Below are positions 1 through 34,102 of a DNA stretch of 34,102 nt, one piece after another (positions within the stretch are counted from its first letter, which is position 1; the number at the start of each line of letters is the position of its first letter). Source of the stretch: a virus. Lineage: Duplodnaviria > Heunggongvirae > Uroviricota > Caudoviricetes. The position numbers and the translations under genes were made by a program. The stretch is from the IMG/VR virus record IMGVR_UViG_2778261316_000008. One strand, written 5' to 3'. The notes under the pieces are model-generated. The model saw only the letters and a list, made by a program, of their open reading frames with translations, had not been told where the DNA came from and searched no databases.

Positions 1-330
1 TCAGTAACCAAACAACGCCCATTTTAGTAGTGCATCTGCATCATTCTTCAAACTTCCAAGGTCTTTTCCTGGTGAAATTGTTGCCGCTACACCAAGCGCA
101 TTAAGTCGAAGCTGTGCCTGATGGAATCGACTCTCTTGCTGTAGGCCCAGAATTTCATTTTTATTCGCGACAGCATAACGCTGAATGGCTGACTTCGATA
201 CGCTGTAACCTTTATCGGCTAACCAGAGCGAGAGCCATTCATAACTGGTGAAGTTTGTGCGCGATAATTCGCTATGAAGCTCGGCACGAACATCCTCTGG
301 CAGTTTATCAATATTGCTTGGTCTGGCCAT
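1..330 (-). CDS. DUF3486-like protein (short paralogue of the gp27-like ORF at 12611-13156)
   Basis: ATG at 330 preceded by AGGAGG; N-terminal ~55 aa (MARxSxIxKLPEDVR...GYxxSKSAIxRY) clearly alignable with the 181-aa ORF at 12611; stop codon at bases 1-3. Confidence 0.6.
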   Translation of the reverse strand: MARPSNIDKLPEDVRAELHSELSRTNFTSYEWLSLWLADKGYSVSKSAIQRYAVANKNEILGLQQESRFHQAQLRLNALGVAATISPGKDLGSLKNDADALLKWALFGY

Positions 331-349
331 CTGTCCTCCTATAAATAGC

Positions 350-739
350 TTAGCTATTTTCCACCTTCTCTGAATCAGAGTCACCATCAAACAGTTTGCC
401 CTGCATCCGATCCAATTCTTCTTTTCTGACCCGCTTCACCACGCTGTAAACCCACTGTAGTGAAACACCGAATTTGCGGGCCAGTTCGTGATGGTTGCGT
501 CCGTCAAACTCCAGGAAGATTTCCCGGTCGCGCTGACTGACCTTCCAGACCATGCCCATCGGAAAATAGACGTTTTGCCCACCCCAGACCTGCATCATGC
601 GGTTCGCGACGGCCTGACCAATCTGGTCGGCAACTGCGGGTTCGATATCAATAATCTCGCGGACGGTCTCAGAGGTATGCTGTGCCAGTTCTACCAACAG
701 TTCCGGCCCTTTACTACGAAACTGATTCAGGTCACTCAT
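350..739 (-). CDS. Mor/C-family transcriptional activator (middle/late gene activator)
   Basis: 129-aa ORF from ATG at 739 (MSDLNQ...); C-terminal region (ELARKFGVSLQWVYSVVKRVR) has the HTH pattern of Mor-family activators; position after GemA-like gene as in Mu. Confidence 0.75.
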   Translation of the reverse strand: MSDLNQFRSKGPELLVELAQHTSETVREIIDIEPAVADQIGQAVANRMMQVWGGQNVYFPMGMVWKVSQRDREIFLEFDGRNHHELARKFGVSLQWVYSVVKRVRKEELDRMQGKLFDGDSDSEKVENS

Positions 740-1164
740 TGCTTCACTCCCGCAGCTCTGCTCTGCCACTTCTTCAGTTTCTCAATCACGCTACTTGCCT
801 GCTCATTGCTGAGCCAGCGTAACGCGCTGATGCCTGTTTCCCGTTTAACCCACAGCGCCAGCGCCTGCTCTGAACTGTCTCGGACGATGCCTGCGGCAGC
901 CATTTCAAGCCATAGCGCACGGATTTTCTTTGACTGCGGATGACTATCCAGCGGTAAGCCGGACCTGGCTTTCCCGGCAGGCTTAATGCGAAAGCCTTTA
1001 TTTTTCATGGATTCCAGCACGCGGTTTAGCTGTGGGGTATCCATCCCTTTGGTTGAGGCTTTGCCGGTCAGCCCCTGTAGCATCTGGCGGTAGGTGTCCT
1101 CATCCATCTGGAGGTCGCTGCGGGCAATATGAATGAGTTGAATAAGACGCTGCTTAGTCATCAT
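736..1164 (-). CDS. GemA-like protein (Mu gp16 family)
   Basis: ATG at 1164 (MMTKQRLIQLIHIARSDL...); motif LIxLIHxA...DDTYR...LxxxTGK resembles Mu GemA/gp16; 4-nt overlap with downstream activator gene. Confidence 0.65.
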   Translation of the reverse strand: MMTKQRLIQLIHIARSDLQMDEDTYRQMLQGLTGKASTKGMDTPQLNRVLESMKNKGFRIKPAGKARSGLPLDSHPQSKKIRALWLEMAAAGIVRDSSEQALALWVKRETGISALRWLSNEQASSVIEKLKKWQSRAAGVKQ

Positions 1165-3719: not shown

Positions 3720-4886
3720 TTAAACTCCTTTGACGACGTCGGCGTTGACCTGCGGGACCCCGATTTCAGCAGCCAGATTCATGGCGGCTATCACCAGGTT
3801 ACTGACGGCCAGCGGATACAGCAGGCTGACCATGCTTTTACGGCTACTACCCAGATTGCTCAGACGGGCGCGGATGGCTTCCACTGCGCTGGCGTCCATG
3901 ATGTCGGCCAGCTGCTTACCGGCACGTTGCAGTTTGAACGTCAGAAACTCTTCGAGGCTGTTGTCCAGCGGCAGCAGTTCAACCACCTCGCAGCGCTGGA
4001 CGACCTCACGGACTTCCATGTTGCGTTCGGACAGTTTGTCCGCCAGTTCAGGCTGGCCAATCAGCACGATGGACAGCAGTTTTTTGAAGCCGGACTCCAG
4101 TTCGAAGAAGCGTTTAAGGTGCTTCAGCGTCGGAATGGGAAGGCTGTGGGCCTCCTCAATCACCAGAACGTGGCTGAAACCCGCCTGACTGCTGTCCTTC
4201 AGGACTCGGTGCAACTGGCGGAAGCGGGCGTCCTGGCTGCGCTTGATACTCTCCAGCGGCGCGATGGTGCTGATGATGGCCTCGGCGATAGCTGCCGCCT
4301 TCAGGGTTTTGCCCTTCACGTCGTTGTCTTCCATGGCGATGATGTATGGCTCGATTACAATCACCGGCGCGTTCTCGCGGTTGACGCGTTCAATCAGGTC
4401 GCGGCGCAGCGTGGATTTACCCGCACCGGACTCGCCGATAACCGCCAGAAAGCCACCATGGCGGGCGGTCTGGAACAGCGCCTCACGCACGTAGCGGATA
4501 TCCGGCGTGGTGAACACATCGTCCGCGCCCTGCATGGCTTCATCGGCGAACGGATCACGGAAAAGGCCAAACGCTTTTTTGGTTGCTGGAAATAACACCT
4601 GCTTTTTGAGTAACATGTTCTCTTCCTCACTGAGGTTGGTTTTATCGGTAGTACCCGCTGTACGGGGCGTGACAGCGCCCTGTGCAGCATCAAAACTTTT
4701 CGCTGTATCAATCCCCTTACTTTCCAGATACAACGCCAGACGCTGGCGTACCTCTTCGGGGCTGGTGCGTGGCCACTCGTTATGGTTCACAATCTGGGCC
4801 AGCGTGGCCTCGGAAACGGCGACGGCTCTTGCCACCACCGCCTGCGGGATGCGGGCCTCTTTCAGTTGTTGCTTCAGTACCAGCAT
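3720..4886 (-). CDS. AAA+ transposition ATPase (MuB/TniB/ExeA-like)
   Basis: Walker A GESGAGKST, Walker B-like hhhVIEEAH; N-terminal HTH-like region; directly downstream of DDE transposase; RBS GGAGGAAGG. Confidence 0.8.
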   Translation of the reverse strand: MLVLKQQLKEARIPQAVVARAVAVSEATLAQIVNHNEWPRTSPEEVRQRLALYLESKGIDTAKSFDAAQGAVTPRTAGTTDKTNLSEEENMLLKKQVLFPATKKAFGLFRDPFADEAMQGADDVFTTPDIRYVREALFQTARHGGFLAVIGESGAGKSTLRRDLIERVNRENAPVIVIEPYIIAMEDNDVKGKTLKAAAIAEAIISTIAPLESIKRSQDARFRQLHRVLKDSSQAGFSHVLVIEEAHSLPIPTLKHLKRFFELESGFKKLLSIVLIGQPELADKLSERNMEVREVVQRCEVVELLPLDNSLEEFLTFKLQRAGKQLADIMDASAVEAIRARLSNLGSSRKSMVSLLYPLAVSNLVIAAMNLAAEIGVPQVNADVVKGV

Positions 4887-4896
4887 GCCTTCCTCC

Positions 4897-6666
4897 TCAG
4901 TTACCGTTAACGATGCTGATAACGCTGTTGCGGGCCGGAGTGGTCAGGGTAACCATCACCTCATCCAGCGCGGCTTCAGGTACGCCATCCGGGTACTGCG
5001 CCGTTAACTGGCGGTAATGTTCCGGCGTCCAGATATGGCCGTTAGCGCCAAACTTCTCGCGCAGGGCTTTCGCCGCCTCCACATGGGTCAGCGGACGCTG
5101 CTCAATACGCGGCCCGCGCACGTCTGAAGCCTGACCGCGCTTCGGCATATAGGCCGGAAGCGTGGTGTCGTCGATATGTTTGTACGGGTCAAGTCGCCCG
5201 CCGAACGGCAGCGCCTTCGCCTTGCGTGCAGCAGCTGCATCGGTGGCGTTATCGGTGCCCGTAACCAGCTCTTCGATTTCTTTTGCCGCCGTCTGCGCCG
5301 GGGTCTCCGGCAGGGCTTTGTAGTTTTCGCCAAATACCGCCGCGCTTTCGGCAAAGCCGAACTCGTTCTTTCTGACCTCCTCGACCAGGAAGAACGTCTC
5401 GTGACCGTCCTCACCGGTCAGCACCACCTGCGCCACATCGCTGCGCCACGGGTTACGGGTAATCATCAGTTTTTCGCCGACCAGTACGCCCGGTACCGTC
5501 GAAACGTCAAACTCATTGCCCCGGAACGAGACGCGCAGTTTTGGTGTGACCTTACGGAGTTCCGGTGCGGCCACCGCCAGTTCGCGGCAAACCTCAACGG
5601 ATGGCGCTTTTTTCAGCTGGTCAGCAGTAATCTTCAGCCAGATATCCGTGCGGGTTTTACCGTGGCGGCTGTGGACCGCCGTGGCGTTAAAGTGGCTGCG
5701 CCATTTCACCGCCAGTGCGTTCAGTTCGTCCAGGCTATGAACCGGCTGGAATTTGAGACCCGGCTCCAGTTTACGTTCGATAATGTCACGGGCCTTTTCC
5801 ACCTGCCCGGTGGCGCGGGCGTTATGCGGCTTGTGCGCTATCAGATTGATGCCCAGCGAGCGGCACATGTTTTTCGTCATGCCAGCGGTGTTCGCCGAAC
5901 CGGGATCAAGGTAGAGTATTTTCGGCACGCCGTGCAGCACGTCCGCGCCGCCGCGCTCCTGCATGGCGTTGATAAGCACAGAACAGAGGTTCTCACCAGA
6001 TTCCGCACCCATCACGTACTCAACGTAAATCCAGCCGCTGGTATGGTCGGTAATCTCGTAACTCCACACGCGGTCACTGGCGATGCGGGCGATGTTGGCA
6101 GGCTTGTTCTTGTAGAACTTCGAGCTGTCCATCACCTGCAACCCTTTATGGCCGTTGCTCAGGTAGTAAAGCGTACAAAGTGAGGCATCAATCTCCCAGA
6201 CGTGATTGGGATGCAGGCTGGCCATCTCGGACGACGGGGCCGGTGCGTCAAGCTGTTCCGGGTGCAGACCATAGTTCCGCAGGGCGCGGCTGATGGTGTC
6301 CTCGGACAGCGGGAAAAACTCGCCTGTGGCCTCGTCCGTTCTGCCAGCAGTGATAAAGCCGTTTGACCGCAGGGTCTCCACCGCATCCGCGATGGAATAC
6401 AGGCGCTTACCGTTCTTACGGGTGGCCTCGCGCAGCGTGGCAGATATCAGCGCGGCTTCGTCGCGGCTCAGGGCACTGCGCCCGGCATCGGCGCGTTTTT
6501 TACGTTTGTCAGTCACTGATACCTCCTTCAGCTTGCGCAGCAGGGTGGCGCGGGAAATGCCCAGTTCGGCGCAGGCGGCATCATATATCGCACCACGCTT
6601 ACCATGCCCCGCGTCACGTGCCGCGCGGGCAACATAAACCAGTCGTTCAGTCAGGGCGGCACTCAT
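4897..6666 (-). CDS. DDE transposase (Mu A-like / rve integrase core)
   Basis: 589 aa; N-terminal HTH, integrase-core-like region (HPNHVWEIDAS...LYLDPGSANTA...) and C-terminal Mu-transposase-like region; RBS AGGAGG before ATG at 6666. Confidence 0.85.
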   Translation of the reverse strand: MSAALTERLVYVARAARDAGHGKRGAIYDAACAELGISRATLLRKLKEVSVTDKRKKRADAGRSALSRDEAALISATLREATRKNGKRLYSIADAVETLRSNGFITAGRTDEATGEFFPLSEDTISRALRNYGLHPEQLDAPAPSSEMASLHPNHVWEIDASLCTLYYLSNGHKGLQVMDSSKFYKNKPANIARIASDRVWSYEITDHTSGWIYVEYVMGAESGENLCSVLINAMQERGGADVLHGVPKILYLDPGSANTAGMTKNMCRSLGINLIAHKPHNARATGQVEKARDIIERKLEPGLKFQPVHSLDELNALAVKWRSHFNATAVHSRHGKTRTDIWLKITADQLKKAPSVEVCRELAVAAPELRKVTPKLRVSFRGNEFDVSTVPGVLVGEKLMITRNPWRSDVAQVVLTGEDGHETFFLVEEVRKNEFGFAESAAVFGENYKALPETPAQTAAKEIEELVTGTDNATDAAAARKAKALPFGGRLDPYKHIDDTTLPAYMPKRGQASDVRGPRIEQRPLTHVEAAKALREKFGANGHIWTPEHYRQLTAQYPDGVPEAALDEVMVTLTTPARNSVISIVNGN

Positions 6667-9229: not shown

Positions 9230-10000
9230 TCAAAAATTACAAATTACCAGCTCTTTCTTCGGGCTGGGTTTGCCTGTTACCTTAAGGTTGTAGCTGATAT
9301 CAACCGACTGCATGTTCAGACCGTTGAATACCTGCCGCATTTCCGGGATATCGTTCACTGATATAATCATCTTCCCTTTGATCCTTCGCGCTAAATCTGC
9401 CATGTGATCATAGTTTTCCAGCCCGAACTCCACACCATAGCCTTCCGTTCCCCAGTACGGTGGGTCACAGTAGAACAGCGTATGCGGGCGATCATATCGC
9501 TCTATGCACTGGTGCCAGTCCAGATGCTCTATCAGCGTTCTCGACAGGCGCAGGTGTGCCATCGACAGTTCTTCCTCAATACGCAGCAAATTGAAGCGCG
9601 GCGCACTGGTTGTAGAGGTACCGAATGTGTGATCGGCGACCTTGCCGCCAAATGCCTGTTTCTGCAGGTAGTAGAACCGGGCCGCCCGCTGAATGTCGGT
9701 GAGCGTTTCTTCCGGCGTATCCTGCAACCATTTGTAAATCTGACGGCTGACCAGCGCCCATTTGAACTGGCGAATAAATTCTTCCAGATGATGCTTGACC
9801 ACCCGATAGAGGTTCACCAGTTCCCCGTTGATATCGTTAATGACTTCGGTCTTGCTGGGAGTCTTTAGGAAATAGAGCGCAGCTGCCCCGCAGAACGGCT
9901 CCACATAGCAGGTATGGGCCGGAAACAATGGTAAAATATGCTTCGCCAGACGACGTTTACCGCCAATCCATGGGACGATGGGTAAAGATTGTTCTTTCAT
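9230..10000 (-). CDS. Dam-like N6-adenine DNA methyltransferase (D12 class)
   Basis: DPPY motif (LFYCDPPYWG), SAM-binding-like EPFCGAAALYF; ATG at 10000 (alternative TTG at 10024). Confidence 0.8.
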   Translation of the reverse strand: MKEQSLPIVPWIGGKRRLAKHILPLFPAHTCYVEPFCGAAALYFLKTPSKTEVINDINGELVNLYRVVKHHLEEFIRQFKWALVSRQIYKWLQDTPEETLTDIQRAARFYYLQKQAFGGKVADHTFGTSTTSAPRFNLLRIEEELSMAHLRLSRTLIEHLDWHQCIERYDRPHTLFYCDPPYWGTEGYGVEFGLENYDHMADLARRIKGKMIISVNDIPEMRQVFNGLNMQSVDISYNLKVTGKPSPKKELVICNF

Positions 10001-10247
10001 TATCCGTAAGCCTTTTGCAATCAATGAAAATATGGCAGGCTAGTCTGGTCTCGCGAGACTGACTGAACCCTGGTCGGCTCACAGTGCATACCTGTGGGTT
10101 GATGACCAGCCTGGTGTTACCGCACCGGGCTGGTCGTTCTTTCAAAGCCATCATGCGGTTCACGTCTGCATCCTCACTATTAACGCTGTTTAAAATCCCT
10201 TTCCCCGACCATTTGTGATGCTGTCTCCACTACACAAGGAGACGCTC

Positions 10248-12307: not shown

Positions 12308-12611
12308 TATCGCCCGCGTGCGCCGGGAATCCCTGCGCTGGAGTCTGCTGGTTGCTCTGAACAAAACCCGCCCGTATACCGCCAGCGAGACGCTGCTGCT
12401 GGATGTATCCCGCGCCATCTACCCGGACACCACGCCGCTGGAGCTGCGCCGTGAGCTGGATTATCTGGCCGACCGCAAGATGGTAGATCTGGAGAAAAAA
12501 CCCTCCGGCGACTGGTTTGCCGACCTGACCCGCCTCGGCGTCGACCTGGTGGAATACACCGTGGAATGCGGCCCCGGCATCGCCCGCCCGGAAAAGTACT
12601 GGAGTGAATAA
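12300..12611 (+). CDS. hypothetical protein (Mu gp26-like position)
   Basis: ATG at 12300 with CAGGAGG RBS; stop overlaps start of next gene (TAATG). Confidence 0.5.
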   Translation: MVDIARVRRESLRWSLLVALNKTRPYTASETLLLDVSRAIYPDTTPLELRRELDYLADRKMVDLEKKPSGDWFADLTRLGVDLVEYTVECGPGIARPEKYWSE

Positions 12612-13156
12612 TGGCCAGACGCAGCACGATAGAAAAGCTGCCGGAAGATGTGCGTCGCTGGCTTGAGCGGGCGCTGACTGAATCCGGCTTCAGCGGGTAT
12701 AACGAGCTGGAGTCCCTGCTGCGTGAGCAGGGTTACGTCATCAGCAAATCGGCTATCCATCGCTATGGACAGAAGATTGAGCGCCGCTATGGCGCTATCC
12801 GTGCGGCTACCGAAGCGGCCCGCATGCTGACCGAGGGAGCTGCTGACGATCAGGATGCGCGTTCGGAGGCGGTGATCGCCCTGATTCAGACCGAGCTGTT
12901 CGAGAGTATTGTCCAGCTGCAGGAAGCGGAAGAAGGCGAAGTCGACCCCAAAGAGCGCGTGGCGCTGCTGTCGAAGGTGGCGAAGAACGTGGCCACGCTG
13001 TCCCGCGCGTCCGTCAACCTCAAGAAGTTCCAGTCCGAAGTCCGGGCCAGAGCGCAGCAGGCAGCCAGCAACGCCGAGAAAATTGCCCGTAAGGGTGGAC
13101 TGTCAACCGATGCGGTGCAGGCACTGCGACGTGAAATTCTGGGGATTGCCACATGA
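12611..13156 (+). CDS. DUF3486 protein (Mu gp27-like, putative small terminase-like subunit)
   Basis: MARRSTIEKLPEDVRRWL... N-terminal domain; immediately upstream of and overlapping large terminase. Confidence 0.7.
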   Translation: MARRSTIEKLPEDVRRWLERALTESGFSGYNELESLLREQGYVISKSAIHRYGQKIERRYGAIRAATEAARMLTEGAADDQDARSEAVIALIQTELFESIVQLQEAEEGEVDPKERVALLSKVAKNVATLSRASVNLKKFQSEVRARAQQAASNAEKIARKGGLSTDAVQALRREILGIAT

Positions 13157-14676
13157 GCCAGCTTGCTCCCGTTTTGCCTGATACCTCGGCGCTGGATATC
13201 CCCGCCGTTCTGATGCCCTACCAGCAGCGCTGGGTGGCTGACACCTCTCCGCTTAAGGTGATTGAGAAGAGCCGCCGTACCGGTATCACCTGGGCTGAAG
13301 CGTCCGATGATGTGCTGACCGCAGCCTCTTCAGCACCTGCGGGCGGGATGAACGTGTATTACATCGCCTATAACCAGGACATGACCGTCGAATATATCCA
13401 GGCCTGTGCGATGTGGGCGCGGGCATTCAACTATGCTGCCAGTGAAATCGAAGAAGGTTTCTGGGAAGAGGACGAAGACGACAAGCACATCAAGACCTAT
13501 ACCATCAAGTTTCCCGACTCCGGTTTCCGCGTTGTCGCGCTCTCCAGTCGACCGTCGAACCTGCGTGGCCGTCAGGGCATCATCGTTATCGACGAAGCGG
13601 CGTTCCATGAGCAACTGGACGAGCTGCTGAAGGCGGCGCTGGCGATGCTTATCTGGGGTGGCAAGGTGCGCGTTATCTCCACCCATGACGGTGACGATAA
13701 CCCGTTCAATACGCTTATCGGTGATATTCGGGCCGGACGTCAGGGGGGTAGCGTACACCGCATTACTTTCCAGGAGGCCGTGGCGGAGGGACTGTTCCAC
13801 CGCGTCTGCCTGCGTACCGGGAAAGAATGGTCGCAAGCGTCCGAGCAGGCGTGGATGGCATCGGTGTACAAATTCTACGGTGCCGGTGCATCCGAGGAGC
13901 TTGACTGCGTTCCGGCCAACGGAGGCGGCGCCTGGCTGTCCCGCGCCCTGATTGAGTCCCGCATGTCACCCGATACGCCGGTGCTGCGCCTGACCTGCCC
14001 GGAGGGCTACGAGCTGAAGCCCGACGACGTCCGCTGGAGCGAGACGCAGGACTGGCTGGACGAACACCTCAAACCATTGCTGGAAGCTCTGCCTGCTGAC
14101 GCACGTTCTTTCCTGGGGCGCGACTTTGGCCGCAGCGGTGACCTGTCGGTGGACTATCCCCTGTTGCAGGAGAAGAACCTGGTACGTCGCGTACCGTTCG
14201 TGCTGGAGCTGCGCAACGTGCCGTTCAAACAGCAGGAGCAAATTGCGTGGTATCTGATGGACGGCCTGCCAAACCTGATGGGCGCGGCGCTCGATGCCCG
14301 TGGTAACGGCTCTTATCTCGCCGAATACGCCATGCAGCGCTACGGCTCCAGCCGGGTCAAGCAGGTGATGCCTACCGAAAACTGGTATCGCGAGCATATG
14401 CCGCCGGTCAAGGCTGCGCTGGAAGATGGCAACCTGGTGGATTTACCGAAGGATGAAGACACGCTGGACGACCTGCGGGCCGTTCAGGTGGTAAACGGCG
14501 TTCCCCGCGTGCCGGAACAGCGCTCAAAAGCGAAGTCTGACAGTGGCAAGCGTCACGGGGATTCAGCCATCGCACTGGCGCTGGCGTACTTCGCCAGCCG
14601 TGAAATTAACAAAGGGCCGGTGAAGGCAAGCTCACGCCGTCGTCGTCAGGCGGCCCGTATGCTGGAGGATTACTGA
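13153..14676 (+). CDS. terminase large subunit (Mu gp28-like)
   Basis: 507 aa; position between DUF3486 and portal; acidic/ATPase-like motifs (GIIVIDEAAF). Confidence 0.8.
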   Translation: MSQLAPVLPDTSALDIPAVLMPYQQRWVADTSPLKVIEKSRRTGITWAEASDDVLTAASSAPAGGMNVYYIAYNQDMTVEYIQACAMWARAFNYAASEIEEGFWEEDEDDKHIKTYTIKFPDSGFRVVALSSRPSNLRGRQGIIVIDEAAFHEQLDELLKAALAMLIWGGKVRVISTHDGDDNPFNTLIGDIRAGRQGGSVHRITFQEAVAEGLFHRVCLRTGKEWSQASEQAWMASVYKFYGAGASEELDCVPANGGGAWLSRALIESRMSPDTPVLRLTCPEGYELKPDDVRWSETQDWLDEHLKPLLEALPADARSFLGRDFGRSGDLSVDYPLLQEKNLVRRVPFVLELRNVPFKQQEQIAWYLMDGLPNLMGAALDARGNGSYLAEYAMQRYGSSRVKQVMPTENWYREHMPPVKAALEDGNLVDLPKDEDTLDDLRAVQVVNGVPRVPEQRSKAKSDSGKRHGDSAIALALAYFASREINKGPVKASSRRRRQAARMLEDY

Positions 14677-24074: not shown

Positions 24075-26540
24075 GTGGCCAGTGAATTTTCAGTCGGCGT
24101 CATTATTGGCGGCATTGTCGGGAGCAGCTTCCGCTCAGCCGTCAGTGGCACCCGACGCGCCCTAGATTCCCTGGGCGATACATCGCGCCGCCTGCAGGAA
24201 CGCCAGAATGCCTTAACTCGTGCAACTGAACGTTATGGCCAGTTAGGCTCTTCCCGGATGCAGCGCCTCAACAGCGAACTGCTGCGGGTAAGCCGCACAA
24301 TGGAGCAAATTGAACGCCAGCAGCGCCGTCTGTCAGCAGTATCAGCCACCAGTGACGCGCTGAAAGCTAACCGCATGGCGCTCTATGGCCAGGGAGCAGA
24401 GACTTATGGTATCGCCCGAACGCTGGGCGCACCGGTCATGGCCTCTGTCAAACAATATTCATCGTTTGAATCCCAGCTACGCGATATCAGTGTCACCGGT
24501 GATCTGGATTCAAGGCAGGAACAGGCCATCGGTACTGCCATTCGTCGGGCATCCCTGCAGGTCAATCAGCTCCAGGAATCTCTGTTGAGCGGCGTTGGTC
24601 AACTGGTTGCCGATGGCATGAATCCGCAGCAGGCAGCGACCTTTGCCGGGATGCTCGGTAAAGCGGCCACGGCCACCAAAGCAGATATGACTGACCTCGC
24701 AAAAATGACCTACGCCTTTAGCGATGCGCTGAAAATTACCGATGCCAAAGAGCTGGAGCAGGCGTTTGGGATTGCGGCAACCGGGGCCAAGCTAGGCTCG
24801 TTTGAGCTGAAGGATATGGCGAAAGCGTTACCCGGTATGGCCAAAGCCTTCGCTGCACGTGGTATTTACGGCAAAGACGCCATAACCCAGATCGTAGCCA
24901 GTCTGGAAGTGGGTAAAGGCAGCGGCTCAGCGGAAGAGGCCGTCACTAATATGTCAAACTGGCTGGCGGCAATGGGACGCGGAGATACCACGCAGAAATA
25001 CGCTAAGGCTGGCGTGGATTACCAGGGATCAATGCAAAATTATGTAGCCCAGGGGTTCTCTCAATATGAAGCCTCCCTGATGATTGCCAACCGGTTTATC
25101 GACGGTAAAGGCAAGGCATTTGTGCAGCAATGGAAGGCGGCAGGCTCAAGAGGCGATCAGGAAGGCCAGCAGAAGCTGATGGAGTCCTTCGGACTGGCGG
25201 AAGTCTTTACCGATATCCAGACCGTGAACCATCTACTGTCTATGCGTCAGGGCTGGGATAAGTACCAATCTAACAAGCAGGAAATGAACACTCCCTCTGC
25301 AATGTCTACGCTGGACAAGGATGCAGCGAAACAAAATGATACGCTCGAAGGACGTTGGCGCAGAACGCAGATTGGGTTTAACGACTCGGCCATTAGCATC
25401 GGAGAATCATTACGTCCGGCGTTGATCCAGCTGGGGGAAACATTCATCCCCTTAATGAACAGCGTTGGAAAATGGATTGCGGCTAATCCGCAACTCGTGA
25501 GCGGCACAATTCAAGTGATTGGCGCATTACTTGCGTTCAAGATGGCAACCATCGGCCTCAAGCTCGGGCTGAATCTCCTTATTTCACCTTTCGTCAACGT
25601 CTGGAAAAATGCCGTGCTCCTGCGGGCCAACTGGCTTCGCCTGACACTCGCGCTGGGTGAAGGCGGCAAACTTCGCTGGCTGGTGACCGGCTTCAGCTCC
25701 GTCGCCAGAGGAGCCAGAACACTGGGTGGTGTGCTGTCAGGTGGGCTGGTTCGCGGCATTATGATCGCCGGGCGTGCCGTTCTCTGGATTGGGCGGGCAT
25801 TGCTGATGAATCCCATTGGTCTTGCTATCACCGCCGTCGCGGCGGCGGCTTATCTTATTTATCGTAACTGGGGGGCTGTCAGCAGTTGGTTCAAACAGCG
25901 CTGGGCTGACATTAAAGAGGCTTTTAACGGCGGTATCGTGGGGATTGGTAAGCTGCTGATTAACTGGTCGCCGGTTGGTCTGCTCTATAAAGCCTTTGCG
26001 GCTGCGCTGAAATATCTCGGCGTTGATCTGCCCGCGAAGTTCACTGACTTCGGTGGCCATCTTATCGACGGGCTGATAAACGGCATCAAAAACAAATGGG
26101 AGTCGCTCAAAACCACCGTCACAGATATGGGTGACAGTGTCGGCGGCTGGTTCAAGGAAAAGCTGGGTATCCATTCGCCGAGCCGCGTGTTTATGGGCTT
26201 TGGTGACAACATCGCGCAGGGTGCCGCTATCGGCCTGCAGCGTACCACACCACTGGCAGCGCTCGCCGGACAACGCCTGGCAACAGAGATGACTCCCGAT
26301 GTTCCCCGTATCCCGTCGCCGGAAATCATGGCAGCGGGATATTCAGGTCGTGGCGCAGTTGCAACTGGCGGCGGAACATCTGGCGGTATCCAGGTCAGCT
26401 TTAATCCTCAGTTTTTCCTCAATGGCAAAGAAACCGCAGCGCCTGCCGGACTGACCGGCGCACTGAATATGAGCCTGCATGAACTGGAGAAAATGCTGGA
26501 GCGTCTGCTGGCTCAGAAACAACGTCGGGGGTACGAATAA
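24075..26540 (+). CDS. tail tape measure protein
   Basis: 821 aa, GTG start after AGAGGA, coiled-coil N-terminus, hydrophobic segments mid-protein. Confidence 0.85.
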   Translation: MASEFSVGVIIGGIVGSSFRSAVSGTRRALDSLGDTSRRLQERQNALTRATERYGQLGSSRMQRLNSELLRVSRTMEQIERQQRRLSAVSATSDALKANRMALYGQGAETYGIARTLGAPVMASVKQYSSFESQLRDISVTGDLDSRQEQAIGTAIRRASLQVNQLQESLLSGVGQLVADGMNPQQAATFAGMLGKAATATKADMTDLAKMTYAFSDALKITDAKELEQAFGIAATGAKLGSFELKDMAKALPGMAKAFAARGIYGKDAITQIVASLEVGKGSGSAEEAVTNMSNWLAAMGRGDTTQKYAKAGVDYQGSMQNYVAQGFSQYEASLMIANRFIDGKGKAFVQQWKAAGSRGDQEGQQKLMESFGLAEVFTDIQTVNHLLSMRQGWDKYQSNKQEMNTPSAMSTLDKDAAKQNDTLEGRWRRTQIGFNDSAISIGESLRPALIQLGETFIPLMNSVGKWIAANPQLVSGTIQVIGALLAFKMATIGLKLGLNLLISPFVNVWKNAVLLRANWLRLTLALGEGGKLRWLVTGFSSVARGARTLGGVLSGGLVRGIMIAGRAVLWIGRALLMNPIGLAITAVAAAAYLIYRNWGAVSSWFKQRWADIKEAFNGGIVGIGKLLINWSPVGLLYKAFAAALKYLGVDLPAKFTDFGGHLIDGLINGIKNKWESLKTTVTDMGDSVGGWFKEKLGIHSPSRVFMGFGDNIAQGAAIGLQRTTPLAALAGQRLATEMTPDVPRIPSPEIMAAGYSGRGAVATGGGTSGGIQVSFNPQFFLNGKETAAPAGLTGALNMSLHELEKMLERLLAQKQRRGYE

Positions 26541-31374: not shown

Positions 31375-32208
31375 ATGGCAAACCTACCTGAAACCCCGCA
31401 GTGGGAAGAAGGCATCTACCAGATTGAGGTCTCTGACCCCGTTCTGGGTGGGCCTGACGGAATCTCTAACCGTCAGGGTAAACAACTGGCCAGCCGCACG
31501 CTGTACCTGAAGCAACAGGTTGAAAAAGGCGGTTCTGAACTTGCGAAACACATCGCGGCAGCAGACCCGCATACCCAGTACGCACCGAAAGCCAGCCCGA
31601 CATTCACCGGCACGCCAACAGCGCCTACGCCTGCAAATAGTGATAACAGCAAGAAGCTGGCGACGACAGAGTTTGTGGCCAAAGCACTTGCGGCGCTTGC
31701 TGGCAGCGCTCCTGAGACGCTGGATACGCTCAAAGAGCTGGCTGATGCCCTCGGCAACGATCCGAATTTTGCGACCACGGTGTTGAACAAGCTGGCGGAA
31801 AAGCTGGCCAAAGACCAGCACGGCGCAGATATTCCTGACCCGGCGCTCTTTGTCAAAAACCTTGGTTTGGGAGAATCGAAGTATGTAATTAAACGGGGAA
31901 CAAATGCTAATGGCGCCTGGATTATCTGGTCAGATGGAGCAGTCGAAGTTTTTGGTTCTGCCGTAACAATTGTTGATGGACTTGCGACAGTAACGTTTCC
32001 AGTGCAGCTTCCTGCTGTGACGAGAAATATTTCTATTGCAGAACGCATATCGCAAGACCCTGGAGTATCACCAGCATCAAACCCGATGCACGTATCAATA
32101 GTAATTGATAACACCGTCACTACGACTGGCTTTAAGGCCCGTTGTGTTATGGCGTCGGGCATGGCTTCATCGAATGGTTTTTCCTGGAGGGTATATGCGC
32201 CTGTTTAA
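31375..32208 (+). CDS. tail fibre protein S (constant N-terminus + variable C-terminus, current orientation)
   Basis: 277 aa; gix-like crossover site lies inside codons for KNLGLG (aa ~160); C-terminal ~115 aa encoded in AT-richer invertible DNA. Confidence 0.75.
   Translation: MANLPETPQWEEGIYQIEVSDPVLGGPDGISNRQGKQLASRTLYLKQQVEKGGSELAKHIAAADPHTQYAPKASPTFTGTPTAPTPANSDNSKKLATTEFVAKALAALAGSAPETLDTLKELADALGNDPNFATTVLNKLAEKLAKDQHGADIPDPALFVKNLGLGESKYVIKRGTNANGAWIIWSDGAVEVFGSAVTIVDGLATVTFPVQLPAVTRNISIAERISQDPGVSPASNPMHVSIVIDNTVTTTGFKARCVMASGMASSNGFSWRVYAPV
31853..31870. repeat. hix/gix-like recombination site (left inverted repeat)
   Basis: TCAAAAACCTTGGTTTGG; 14-bp core AAAAACCTTGGTTT is the perfect reverse complement of 33441-33454. 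Confidence 0.7.
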
Positions 32209-32380
32209 TCCGAAAATGTTAACTGAGGTTATTCCTGGATTTCATGACACCACTGATGCAATTGAATTGCCGGATGACAACTGGTTTTTCACAACAACTG
32301 AAATACCTGAAGGGAAAATACTCGCCGCAAATGAACGCGGCGAGCCCGTTCTGATTGATATTACTGTCCCGGAGGAGTAG
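32195..32380 (+). CDS. small ORF downstream of S (possible short or truncated tail fibre assembly protein)
   Basis: 61 aa from ATG 32195 with GGAGGG RBS, 14-nt overlap with S; no clear Tfa C-terminal domain. Confidence 0.35.
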   Translation: MRLFNPKMLTEVIPGFHDTTDAIELPDDNWFFTTTEIPEGKILAANERGEPVLIDITVPEE

Positions 32381-32957
32381 GCCAAATAATAACCGGTGCG
32401 CTGGCGGTGTCAACGCCCTCCAGCGCATCCAGATAATCAAGCCAGGCATTATATTGTTCTTTTTCTGCGTCCTTCAGGCGACCCATTGCTGCTTTACCAG
32501 GCCATTGCTTACCATTCATAAAGTCATTGGCCTGGCTAATCAGCGCCTGTAGTTTTGTTGCCGCCACAGAAATATCATATGCGCGCTGAGCTTCGGGATC
32601 GGCAACCCATTTATTACCATCCCATTTATCAAACTTTGTAGTTGGTGCTTCAAAAGTAAAGCCTTCACGCAACGGTCCAATATATTCGATAGTCACCGGC
32701 TTCCCGTTACTGGTGGTGTATGCTGTTTCTCCACGATGGTCTTCTTTAAGCACCCACTCAGATCCAGAAAAAATAAATACCTTCCCTCCTGCTTCGGCCC
32801 CTGGTTCTATCGCCGTAGAGCATCCGGGCATACTGACACCGATGTTAATAAACTCGTCAGACCATCCCATATATTCAGAAGTCACAGCGTCGTAGTAATA
32901 ACAGCGGATTTCACCCGGTTCTGTTGCCAGTCCGTTTACATCGAAAACAGGTTTCAT
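32361..32957 (-). CDS. tail fibre assembly protein (Tfa/U'-like)
   Basis: 198 aa; EDHRGETAY...GPLREGFT...KWDGNKWVADPEA matches conserved Tfa region. Confidence 0.75.
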   Translation of the reverse strand: MKPVFDVNGLATEPGEIRCYYYDAVTSEYMGWSDEFINIGVSMPGCSTAIEPGAEAGGKVFIFSGSEWVLKEDHRGETAYTTSNGKPVTIEYIGPLREGFTFEAPTTKFDKWDGNKWVADPEAQRAYDISVAATKLQALISQANDFMNGKQWPGKAAMGRLKDAEKEQYNAWLDYLDALEGVDTASAPVIIWPTPPGQ

Positions 32958-33472
32958 TATTTAGCCCTTACAAGAAAGTTGAATGCAATATTTCTTGGGC
33001 GGCTTTCCGTGGATGTTCTGGCAACCCTCGATAAATCAAAATTGAATGTAGAAGTTGATACGGTTCCGCCTGGTGCCGGGGGGGCCAGATTGCCCTGAAC
33101 AACGCTGCGAGAAAATACCCCCAACGCATCTGTATTTACCCCTGTATAAAGATCAACGAGATAACCAGTAACATTCTGAATGGCGTCTCCCTGCGGTGAA
33201 AGCAGGGTTCGCCCATTATCTATCCCACGTCCATCATCCCAGACACGCAGAAACTCTCCTCGCAGATCTGGCAATTTCAGGCCCGGCCAAACAAGGGCCA
33301 ATTTTGGGTAAGTGGTAGGGGAAAATGTTGAGTCGTTAAACTTAAGGAACACCATGTCGGCCCATTCCGGCATCACGGTATTTGGCATGGCAGAAGACGG
33401 CCAAAAAAATGGAACTCCTATCGGTGGTGCACCTGCTCCTAAACCAAGGTTTTTGGAAAAGCAGTTACACAT
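32957..33472 (-). CDS. alternative tail fibre C-terminal segment (S'v)
   Basis: Begins ...FSKNLGLG at the right gix-like site (same KNLGLG as in S); C-terminus ...TESRPRNIAFNFLVRAK matches P2 H / Mu S-type fibre tips. Confidence 0.7.
   Translation of the reverse strand: MCNCFSKNLGLGAGAPPIGVPFFWPSSAMPNTVMPEWADMVFLKFNDSTFSPTTYPKLALVWPGLKLPDLRGEFLRVWDDGRGIDNGRTLLSPQGDAIQNVTGYLVDLYTGVNTDALGVFSRSVVQGNLAPPAPGGTVSTSTFNFDLSRVARTSTESRPRNIAFNFLVRAK
33439..33456. repeat. hix/gix-like recombination site (right inverted repeat)
   Basis: CTAAACCAAGGTTTTTGG; core AAACCAAGGTTTTTG is identical to the core of hixL as I recall it (TTCTTGAAAACCAAGGTTTTTGATAA). Confidence 0.7.
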
Positions 33473-33520
33473 AGAGAAATCTGCAAAAATCCTCCCACTA
33501 TGATGTGAAGGAGGAAATTG

Positions 33521-34102
33521 ATGGCCGTTATTGGTTATATCCGCGTATCAACAATCGACCAGAACAGCGATTTGCAGCGTAATGCACTCACAAGCGCAAA
33601 CTGTGACCGCATTTTTGAAGACCGTATGAGTGGAAAAGTTGCCAGTCGCCCTGGTCTTAAAGGCGCTTTAAAGTGCATTAATAGCGGAGACACCCTGGTA
33701 GTGTGGAAACTGGACAGGCTGGGACGTAGCGTTAAGAACCTGATTGCACTCATATCAGAGTTACATGAACGTGGTGCCCACTTCCGCTCTTTAACAGACA
33801 GTATTGATACCAGCACTGCCATGGGGCGCTTCTTTTTCCATGTAATGTCGGCATTGGCGGAGATGGAGCGCGAGCTAATTGTCGAACGGACACTGGCCGG
33901 GCTGGCAGCAGCCAGAGCACAGGGACGCGTAGGTGGAAGGCCCAACGCATTAAAAACCCATGAGCGAGAGCAGATTGGGCGGCTATTGACGAAGGGGCAC
34001 ACCCGCCAGCAGCTGGCAATTATCTACGGTGTAGGGTTATCGACGCTTTACCGATACTTTCCGGTGGATGGTCATAGGAAGGATAACGCAGCAGGAATGT
34101 AA
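33521..34102 (+). CDS. gin: Gin/Hin/Pin-family serine DNA invertase
   Basis: 193 aa; GYIRVSTIDQN with catalytic Ser, VWKLDRLGRS, C-terminal HTH (GRPNALKTHEREQIGRLL...LSTLYRY); GGAGGA RBS; stop is the last codon of the window. Confidence 0.9.
   Translation: MAVIGYIRVSTIDQNSDLQRNALTSANCDRIFEDRMSGKVASRPGLKGALKCINSGDTLVVWKLDRLGRSVKNLIALISELHERGAHFRSLTDSIDTSTAMGRFFFHVMSALAEMERELIVERTLAGLAAARAQGRVGGRPNALKTHEREQIGRLLTKGHTRQQLAIIYGVGLSTLYRYFPVDGHRKDNAAGM

What the first reader, a model, noticed from the sequence alone, without database searches (positions are those of the whole stretch)
1..330. Second, shortened DUF3486 paralogue at the distal end of the early arm
The 109-aa minus-strand ORF shares its first ~55 residues with the 181-aa gp27-like protein at 12611-13156 but has an unrelated, shorter C-terminus. 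Two DUF3486 proteins on opposite arms of one prophage is unexpected. It could be a remnant of recombination between Mu-like elements, or a regulatory paralogue. Its stop codon sits exactly at the window edge, so its context is unknown.
Basis: seen in the sequence. Interest (0 to 1): 0.4.

Follow-up and report, generated by a model that had tools for sequence, protein, structure and literature searches.

The report
Short terminase-like DNA-binding gene at prophage end
The 109-residue gene at the window edge is a real, conserved small protein that pairs the DNA-binding head of the Mu-type small terminase with its own short helical tail and sits as the last gene before the end of BcepMu-like transposable prophages; it is a previously undescribed accessory family of unknown function, not recombination debris.

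Summary
Window 1-330 (minus strand) encodes a complete 109-aa protein with a strong ribosome-binding site. Its first ~55-60 residues are homologous to the 181-aa gp27/DUF3486 small-terminase candidate at 12611-13156 (27/52 identical, E 1e-15). The rest does not match.

It is not a recombination remnant and not part of a second prophage. In near-identical E. coli prophages the element terminus lies 139 bp beyond window base 1, followed by host DNA.

The protein belongs to a diverse, apparently undescribed family of 102-120 aa. About 55 of the best 150 clusters (50% identity) in a 1.84-billion-protein search match it full length. The family has its own conserved C-terminal helical hairpin, evolves under purifying selection (dN/dS about 0.2), and forms a clade separate from full-length gp27.

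In 11 diverged Beta- and Gammaproteobacterial lineages the order is GemA-Mor-short gene-hairpin-element end. The gene is accessory: most close E. coli relatives, and BcepMu itself, lack it. Its alleles are shuffled relative to neighbouring genes. A transposase-less mini-element also keeps it as its terminal gene.

Function is untested. My best inference is a small, probably dimeric, DNA-binding protein made with Mor that acts at terminase-type (pac or end) sites. A plain transcription regulator is nearly as likely.

The parts
1..330 (-). Short gp27-like gene (109 aa). Residues 1-60 are a DUF3486/gp27 N-terminal three-helix HTH. Residues 63-107 are a family-specific helical hairpin. It is the terminal, outward-reading gene of the early arm.
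   Evidence: ORF and translation. BLASTP to the long gp27. Pfam N-terminal match only. Family alignment A4. AF2 model with mean pLDDT 83 and helices 12-24, 30-39, 46-55, 63-85, 91-107. PGAP annotates the 99.7% identical E. coli copy as WP_023304082.1 'phage protein Gp27 family protein'.
335..340 (-). Shine-Dalgarno sequence AGGAGG, 4 nt upstream of the ATG at 330. Only 19 nt separate the mor stop from this ATG.
   Evidence: Read directly from the sequence. No sigma-70-like promoter was found on this strand inside mor.
350..739 (-). Mor-family transcription activator, immediately upstream and probably co-transcribed.
   Evidence: Pfam PF08765, E 1e-42, full length. PGAP annotation of the homologous E. 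coli copy.
736..1164 (-). GemA (Mu gp16-like), upstream of mor. It forms part of the conserved GemA-Mor-short gene block.
   Evidence: Pfam PF06252, E 5e-41. Synteny table.
3720..6666 (-). Transposition genes: MuB-like AAA/ExeA protein (3720-4886) and DDE transposase (4897-6666). They identify the element as a BcepMu-like transposable prophage with the early arm on the minus strand.
   Evidence: PGAP and KP12 annotations of near-identical copies. 68% and 60% identity to BcepMu gp09 and gp08.
12611..13156 (+). Full-length gp27/DUF3486 protein (181 aa), the presumed small terminase subunit. It is the paralogue named in the finding.
   Evidence: Pfam PF11985 over 1-173/173, E 2.9e-56. Its stop overlaps the start of the large terminase gene. 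AF2 model shows an HTH followed by long helices 46-76, 80-105 and 113-161.
13153..14676 (+). Large terminase subunit (Mu gp28-like), directly downstream of the long gp27. No such gene lies next to the short one.
   Evidence: Annotated 'terminase large subunit' in Klebsiella phage KP12. phmmer matches across loci.

Best explanation
What it is (shown). The gene is a member of a distinct, ancient, accessory family of ~105-115-aa proteins carried by BcepMu-like transposable prophages. The family combines the N-terminal homeodomain/Myb-like HTH of the Mu gp27 (DUF3486) small-terminase candidate with a family-specific two-helix C-terminal hairpin. It lacks the ~120-residue long-helix region that makes up the rest of gp27. 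The gene is the last cistron of the early arm and is followed by a terminator-like hairpin. The element terminus, with its repeated TTATCTCA-type motifs, lies 105-140 bp beyond the stop codon.

How it most likely works (inferred).
1. It is transcribed with mor at the end of the early/middle operon and translated from its own strong ribosome-binding site.
2. The hairpin mediates self-association, probably dimerisation.
3. The HTH binds DNA in the same way as the terminase small subunit's DNA-binding domain, because the putative recognition helix SKSAxHRY is conserved in both families.
4. Without the terminase oligomerisation and large-subunit-binding regions it cannot build a packaging motor.
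5. It would therefore occupy or mark gp27-type sites (pac or element-end DNA) and so modulate when, or on which DNA, packaging starts. It would act as a decoy or as an adaptor.

The gene is dispensable for the basic lytic cycle, because many relatives lack it.
For: Homology is confined to residues 1-60.

Family breadth: about 55 of the best 150 clusters (50% identity) are 100-125 aa and match the profile end to end. The conserved C-terminal motif is RLRCLEvA...A(D/E)xLLxW; the window protein has LRLNALGVA...ADALLKW.

On the N-domain alone all 35 short sequences separate from all 55 long ones.

dN/dS is 0.20-0.21 overall and 0.11-0.25 for the C-terminal half. For window versus Serratia, dN is 0.26 and dS is saturated.

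The order GemA-Mor-short gene-end is seen in E. coli/Klebsiella KP12, Serratia, K. pneumoniae (27-28% identical allele), Thauera (start overlaps the upstream stop), Iodobacter, Dechloromonas and five metagenomic lineages.

The exact terminus is fixed by several copies with different host flanks after ...TCTAATCA. A terminator-like hairpin lies 6 nt after the stop, and no promoter was found inside mor.

A transposase-less, terminase-less mini-element keeps the gene as its terminal, outward-facing gene at three or more insertion sites.
Against: No DNA-binding, oligomerisation or packaging data exist for this family or for gp27 itself. The small-terminase role of gp27 rests on gene position. No paper was found and no solved structure.

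The end sequences are the same in elements with different alleles and in elements without the gene. There is therefore no allele-specific site next to it.

Its identity to its own gp27 N-domain (52%) equals its identity to gp27 of other BcepMu-like phages, so there is no sign of co-evolution with its own terminase.

In the mini-element the gene is not downstream of mor and may be expressed differently.

The near-invariance of the 'recognition helix' across phages of very different hosts could mean that these residues are structural rather than base-specific.
Confidence: 0.4

Rival explanations
1. It is an ordinary small transcription regulator. It would be a dimeric HTH protein made at the end of the early operon that switches particular phage promoters on or off: a late-gene co-activator standing where Mu has C after mor, or a feedback repressor. 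The resemblance to the terminase DNA-binding domain would reflect ancestry only.
For: It occupies the position downstream of mor that C holds in phage Mu (own knowledge of the Mu map; synteny). HTH plus a short helical dimerisation module is the commonest architecture of phage regulators. No allele-specific end sequence was found. In the mini-element it lies on the strand of the HicB-like putative repressor operon.
Against: It has no Mor/C-family match. BcepMu and most E. coli relatives complete their cycle without it, so it cannot be the essential late activator. Alleles only 27-28% identical sit in elements with 91-95% identical Mor and transposase, which is odd for a regulator tuned to conserved promoters. 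The end-adjacent position is kept even where the operon context changes.
Confidence: 0.3
2. It is an inter-element competition factor. It would be a terminase-small-subunit mimic that binds pac or end DNA, or the small subunit, of other Mu-like elements in the same cell. It would block or divert their packaging, in the manner of satellite-encoded packaging interference and redirection proteins.
For: The gene is accessory, patchily distributed and has very divergent alleles shuffled relative to neighbouring genes, a pattern common for conflict genes. A non-autonomous mini-element that must rely on a helper retains it. E. coli AW1.7 carries both such a mini-element and a full-size BcepMu-like prophage lacking the gene.
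Against: In the full-length element it sits in the lytic early operon rather than under a lysogenic promoter. There is no evidence for interaction with any terminase. Co-occurrence with other Mu-like elements was not measured.
Confidence: 0.15
3. It is a non-functional remnant: the 5' part of a gp27 gene left by recombination between Mu-like elements and fused to random sequence.
For: Homology stops abruptly near residue 60. Frameshifted copies exist in one metagenomic contig and in Erwinia tracheiphila. Most relatives lack the gene.
Against: The C-terminal half is conserved across dozens of clusters below 50% identity and is under purifying selection. Length is constant at 102-120 aa. The gene has a strong ribosome-binding site and its own terminator. 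The family forms a monophyletic group apart from gp27. DNA-level divergence from its own gp27 gene is far too deep for a recent event, since the proteins are only 52% identical over the shared part.
Confidence: 0.03
4. It belongs to a second, adjacent prophage whose packaging module lies beyond base 1.
For: None found. The idea was raised only because the window stops at the gene's stop codon.
Against: In copies 98-99.7% identical to the window, the 139 bp beyond the stop are a hairpin plus the transposon terminus. Host DNA that differs from copy to copy follows: napH in E. coli CFSAN051542, other flanks in three viral-contig copies, and four different flanks in Serratia. A 6-bp target duplication, TCATGA, brackets the whole element.
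Confidence: 0.01

Closest known systems
Bacteriophage Mu gp27 / DUF3486 (Pfam PF11985; PHROG 426 'terminase small subunit')
   Same: The N-terminal ~60 residues match, with LP, WL, G and SKSAxHRY conserved. The score exceeds the Pfam gathering threshold. The same element also carries a bona fide full-length gp27.
   Different: It lacks profile positions 54-173, the long-helix region. It has an unrelated, family-specific C-terminal hairpin. It is not next to a large terminase gene. It lies at the far end of the opposite arm. It is accessory rather than universal.
PHROG 15000 (109-position profile, function unknown)
   Same: All 35 family members match it, and the profile length is similar.
   Different: The match covers only positions ~5-58, the shared HTH, for every member tested. 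It is therefore another short derivative of the same HTH, not this family.
Mu C protein / Mor-C family (late transcription activator encoded just after mor in Mu)
   Same: Same relative position (the gene after mor), small size and an HTH.
   Different: There is no sequence match to PF08765. The HTH is N-terminal rather than C-terminal. The gene is absent from many viable relatives, including BcepMu.
Satellite-encoded terminase-subunit mimics and packaging interference or redirection proteins (SaPI TerS and Ppi, PICI Rpp). Analogy recalled from own knowledge, not tested.
   Same: A second small-terminase-related protein is encoded by a mobile element. A helper-dependent mini-element retains it.
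   Different: There is no sequence relationship. Here the protein keeps only the DNA-binding domain, and autonomous phages that have their own complete small subunit also carry it.

Membership tests
Mu gp27 / DUF3486 small-terminase family (PF11985) | N-terminal HTH domain (profile positions 1-55) | tested here: met
   hmmscan E 3.6e-14, 53.9 bits against a cutoff of 28, residues 7-58 on profile 1-53. hhalign probability 99.8% over residues 1-60.
Mu gp27 / DUF3486 small-terminase family (PF11985) | C-terminal ~120 residues of long helices (profile positions 54-173) | tested here: not met
   Pfam and hhalign give no alignment beyond residue 60. Second-domain hits have independent E of 30-800. 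The protein is only 109 aa. The AF2 models differ in this region.
Mu gp27 / DUF3486 small-terminase family (PF11985) | Encoded immediately upstream of the large terminase gene (gp28) | tested here: not met
   The neighbours are Mor on one side and the element end on the other. The long paralogue at 12611-13156 does meet this criterion.
Short gp27-like family defined here (alignment A4) | Length of 100-125 aa with an end-to-end match to the family profile | tested here: met
   109 aa. The family HMM matches positions 1-107 with E 2.7e-38 in the identical E. coli and KP12 copies. This member was part of the seed alignment, so the supporting evidence is that independent members found by the profile (P0007 to P0065) align over its full length.
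Short gp27-like family defined here (alignment A4) | C-terminal motif (R/K)L(R)CLE(V/I)A ... A(D/E)xLLxW | tested here: inconclusive
   The window protein has LRLNALGVA ... ADALLKW. The hydrophobic pattern, A98, L102 and W104 are kept. The Cys and Glu of the commoner motif are replaced by Ala and Gly, as in its closest relatives.
Short gp27-like family defined here (alignment A4) | Outermost, outward-reading gene at the Mor-proximal end of a BcepMu-like element, 105-140 bp from the terminus | tested here: met
   Shown for copies 98-99.7% identical to the window and for 11 diverged lineages plus the mini-element. The window's own flank is not available.
Mor/C transcription activator family (PF08765) | Sequence match to the Mor/C profile | tested here: not met
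   No PF08765 hit at E up to 0.01 for the short protein. The upstream gene matches at 1e-42.
Functional small terminase subunit (any family) | Forms a ring oligomer, binds pac DNA and stimulates the large subunit | not testable with these tools
   This needs biochemistry. Only monomer models were possible.

The most novel reading that the evidence does not exclude
The short gp27-like proteins would be a new class of packaging-specificity factors built from the terminase small subunit's DNA-binding domain alone. By occupying pac or end DNA, or by pairing with gp27, they would decide which of several co-resident transposable elements gets packaged: full-size BcepMu-like phages or the 7.6-7.8-kb helper-dependent mini-elements that also carry the gene. 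That would reveal a satellite-helper conflict system in transposable phages, where none has been described to my knowledge.
Probability: 0.12. Interest if true: 0.65.

Novelty: new variant of a known kind. Interest (0 to 1): 0.4.

Why it matters
Genome annotation pipelines label these proteins 'Gp27 family protein' or 'DUF3486'. That label hides the fact that they are a separate family with a different architecture and a fixed, end-adjacent position. No Pfam, NCBIfam or PHROG model covers them full length, and no paper or solved structure was found.

How Mu-like phages recognise their DNA for packaging is poorly understood, and even the small-terminase role of gp27 is inferred from gene position. 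A natural 'DNA-binding domain only' paralogue is a convenient handle for finding the gp27 binding site.

If the protein turns out to modulate or divert packaging, it would add a regulatory layer to transposable-phage biology. It would also affect how these prophages, common in E. coli, Klebsiella and Serratia, move host DNA. If it is only another small regulator, the result is modest.

Tried and rejected
1. Homology of the short C-terminus to the C-terminus of gp27 (an internal-deletion model). hmmsearch gave recurrent second-domain alignments to gp27 residues ~125-170, but all were insignificant (independent E 30-800), and hhalign did not report them. Rejected.

2. tblastn suggested that the FP_Mushu small terminase aligns to residues 5-90. 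Family-level profiles did not support this.

4. PHROG 15000 looked like the same family because of its 109-position length, but it matches only the HTH.

5. A profile of the C-terminal half alone found only fragments and no other domain architecture.

6. The conserved ~25-bp dyad-containing motif next to the gene was examined as a possible specific binding site. It is present at both ends and also in elements without the gene. It is not over-represented in the window.

7. Rfam found no RNA family in the window or the mini-element.

8. A co-variation test between each element's short and long N-domains could not be done. Loci are limited to 10-kb flanks and the two genes are 12.3 kb apart.

9. 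The genome-collection scan needed a narrower alignment and returned only 7 loci. Prevalence outside E. coli was therefore not quantified.

10. A LexA-box reading of the end motif was rejected because the spacing is off by one. This was checked by eye on the sequence.

Full report
**1. Checking the observation**

Window 1-330 on the minus strand is a complete ORF of 109 codons, with ATG at 330 and TGA at 3-1. AGGAGG sits 4 nt before the ATG. Only 19 nt separate this ATG from the stop codon of the upstream gene (sequence).

BLASTP against the 181-aa protein encoded at 12611-13156 gives 27 identities in 52 ungapped positions, residues 1-52 of both, E 1e-15.

Pfam PF11985 (Phage_Mu_Gp27, formerly DUF3486) matches the short protein only on profile positions 1-53 of 173 (E 3.6e-14). 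It matches the long protein on all 173 positions (E 2.9e-56).

**2. What lies beyond the window edge**

The window is a BcepMu-like transposable prophage.
- The minus-strand arm runs from a Ner-like HTH gene through DUF3102, a DDE transposase, a MuB-like ATPase, DUF3164, DUF2786 and GemA to Mor at 350-739.
- The plus-strand arm carries lysis genes, gp27, the large terminase, the portal, head and tail genes, and a DNA invertase.

The first 2.3 kb are 98.2% identical to a prophage in E. coli CFSAN051542 and others. The ORF itself is 99.4-99.7% identical in six E. coli genomes and 99.1% identical at protein level in Klebsiella phage KP12.

In CFSAN051542 the ORF stop is followed after 6 nt by a terminator-like hairpin (GGGGGGCATCGTCCCCC plus a T-rich tail). 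Then come about 110 bp with repeated ATTTATCT(C/T)AC motifs, then the terminus ...TCTAATCA, then the host gene napH. The other end of the same prophage abuts napB, and a 6-bp duplication TCATGA flanks the element.

Three viral-contig copies, and four Serratia copies of a related element, have different host DNA directly after ...TCTAATCA. This fixes the terminus at 139 bp beyond window base 1. There is no second packaging module and no second prophage.

**3. It is a family, not a fragment**

A profile of the five closest homologues was searched against 1.84 billion representative proteins. It gave 692 hits at E up to 0.001. Among the best 150, about 55 clusters (each below 50% identity to the others) are 100-125 aa long and align to the profile from residue 1 to about 105. 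The remaining strong hits are 165-200-aa gp27 proteins that align only to residues 1-60/70.

An alignment of 35 short members (A4, 27-41% identical to the window protein outside its own subgroup) shows two conserved parts:
- The N-terminal HTH: LP, F27, W36-L37, G41 and SKSAxHRYA.
- A conserved C-terminal pattern, (R/K)LRCLE(V/I)A ... A(D/E)xLLxW. The window protein's version is LRLNALGVA ... ADALLKW.

Profile-profile comparison with the 55 long gp27 sequences aligns residues 1-60 only. Weak second-domain matches to the gp27 C-terminus are not significant.

On the N-domain alone, a neighbour-joining tree places all 35 short sequences on one side of a single branch and all 55 long ones on the other. 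The short family therefore arose once and long ago.

Pairwise dN/dS is 0.20-0.21 where dS is measurable, and 0.11-0.25 for the C-terminal half. For window versus Serratia, dS is saturated and dN is 0.26.

No Pfam, NCBIfam or PHROG model covers the family full length. PHROG 15000, which has a similar length, matches only the HTH. No solved structure and no paper mentioning the family were found.

**4. Structure**

The AlphaFold2 model (mean pLDDT 83) has a three-helix HTH (helices 12-24, 30-39, 46-55). A lower-confidence linker around residues 61-70 follows, and then two helices (63-85 and 91-107).

The model of the 181-aa gp27 has the same HTH, followed by long helices 46-76, 80-105 and 113-161. 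This is the layout expected of an oligomerising small terminase. That expectation comes from general knowledge of small terminases, not from a test here. The short protein lacks all of that region.

**5. Conserved position, patchy presence, shuffled alleles**

The order GemA-Mor-short gene-element end was found in each of the following:
- The window, E. coli and KP12 group.
- Serratia marcescens (69% identical protein).
- K. pneumoniae (27-28% identical allele).
- Thauera butanivorans, where the gene's start overlaps the upstream stop.
- Iodobacter and Dechloromonas.
- Five further metagenomic lineages.

 Wherever downstream sequence is available, the terminus lies 105-140 bp beyond the stop.

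Yet BcepMu itself and most close E. coli relatives end with Mor. An alignment shows the ORF plus hairpin as a clean insertion between mor and the shared ~100-bp end.

Among 5426 complete E. coli genomes, 172 carry the neighbouring Mor-GemA-DUF2786 region. Only 6 carry this allele, 9 carry a second allele and none carry the K. pneumoniae allele. Among 50,697 deposited phage genomes only KP12 has a short-family member.

Allele phylogeny disagrees with that of the neighbouring genes:
- One element with Mor 91% and transposase 95% identical to the window's has a short protein only 28% identical.
- The Serratia element has Mor 34% identical but a short protein 69% identical.

Frameshifted copies occur in one metagenomic contig and in Erwinia tracheiphila. 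The gene is thus accessory and exchangeable, but maintained where present.

**6. A mini-element that keeps the gene**

The second E. coli allele (114 aa) lies in a 7.6-7.8-kb element bounded by the same kind of ends and a 6-bp target duplication. It is inserted in ynbC in strain AW1.7, between dacD and sbmC in strain CX21 and five others, inside a PTS gene in a third lineage, and next to an HK97-like prophage in a viral contig.

It encodes:
- a full-length homologue of the window's tape-measure protein (47% identity);
- Mor;
- a HicB-like protein;
- five hypothetical proteins;
- the short gp27-like protein.

It has no transposase and no terminase. The short gene is again the outermost gene, reads outward and is followed by a hairpin. 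Here, however, it is not downstream of mor, and about 1.1 kb of non-coding DNA precedes it.

Strain AW1.7 also has a full-size BcepMu-like prophage that lacks the gene. Retention in such a reduced element suggests that the protein matters for propagation rather than for the host, but this is inference.

**7. How it probably works**

Shown:
- The protein has a terminase-type HTH plus a private helical module.
- The gene has a strong ribosome-binding site, a 19-nt gap after mor, no promoter-like site inside mor and a terminator-like hairpin after it.
- It sits next to the element end and is dispensable.

Inferred:
- It is made with Mor late in the early phase.
- It self-associates through the hairpin.
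- It binds DNA in the way the gp27 N-domain does.
- Because it cannot assemble a terminase, it occupies or marks gp27-type sites and so modulates the initiation or specificity of packaging.

I give this 0.4. A plain transcription regulator, standing where Mu has C, is nearly as likely (0.3). A role in competition between co-resident Mu-like elements is a further possibility (0.15). A remnant (0.03) or a second prophage (0.01) are effectively excluded.

Against the packaging-site idea:
- End sequences do not differ between elements with different alleles or with none.
- The protein is no closer to its own gp27 than to gp27 of other phages.

**8. Comparison with known families**

By score the protein is a PF11985 match. 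However, it fails two of the three features that define the gp27 small-terminase family: the C-terminal two-thirds, and adjacency to the large terminase gene. It should be described as a distinct short family sharing the gp27 N-domain. It is not a Mor/C protein. The resemblance to satellite-encoded terminase mimics is an analogy from memory and was not tested.

**9. Verdict**

The finding is real and its context is now resolved. It is a new variant of a known kind: an undescribed accessory family derived from the small-terminase DNA-binding domain, with a strikingly fixed position at the end of BcepMu-like transposable prophages. Its function is open. Interest is moderate at 0.4. It would rise if the protein proves to control or divert DNA packaging.

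Noticed in passing
L102 1676-9487 (E. coli AW1.7), L110 (CX21), L111 (LR536431), L068, L105: A 7.6-7.8-kb non-autonomous BcepMu-like mini-element. It has both transposon ends and a 6-bp target duplication. It carries a full-length tape-measure homologue (47% identical to window 24075-26540), Mor, a HicB-like protein, five hypothetical proteins and the short gp27-like gene, but no transposase or terminase. It occurs at three or more different E. coli insertion sites, so it is probably mobilised in trans and may be a satellite of transposable phages.
   Followed up: partly
L102 7890-9000: About 1.1 kb without ORFs upstream of the short gene in the mini-element. It is dense in GC-rich hairpins and terminator-like structures. 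No Rfam family matched.
   Followed up: partly
Just outside the window: L001 about 5950-5975 (left end) and L005 2553-2567 (right end): A dyad TGyAA-N5-TTrCA (for example TGTAAATGAATTACA) lies about 100-115 bp inside both ends of the element. It is conserved in relatives with any allele of the short gene or with none. It may be a binding site for an unidentified dimeric protein.
   Followed up: partly
window 1 and 34102: The window starts exactly at one gene's stop codon and ends exactly at the stop of the invertase-like ORF (33518-34102). It therefore looks like a provirus call trimmed at gene boundaries. It lacks about 139 bp of the left end and about 80 bp of the right end of the element.
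   Followed up: yes
L002 (GenBank OM835952, 'Klebsiella phage KP12 clone KP12_2'): The record is filed under Vequintavirinae. The sequence is nevertheless a BcepMu-like transposable phage almost identical to the window, presumably an induced prophage co-assembled with the lytic phage.
   Followed up: no
window 31375-34102: Tail-fibre and tail-fibre-assembly ORFs lie on opposite strands next to a DNA invertase gene. This resembles the invertible host-range segment of Mu (G segment and gin).
   Followed up: no
window 9230-10024 (minus strand): The ORF corresponds to the gene annotated as a DNA adenine methylase in KP12. It lies between the two arms of the element.
   Followed up: no
L017 8001-8331; P0006 (Erwinia tracheiphila): Frameshifted or N-terminally disrupted copies of the short gene. 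These show that it decays in some lineages.
   Followed up: no
L055 and L026 (metagenomic viral contigs): The short gene lies 110-280 bp from the contig end but follows terminase and portal genes, or transposition and portal-like genes, rather than Mor. These may be deletion derivatives or assembly artefacts.
   Followed up: no
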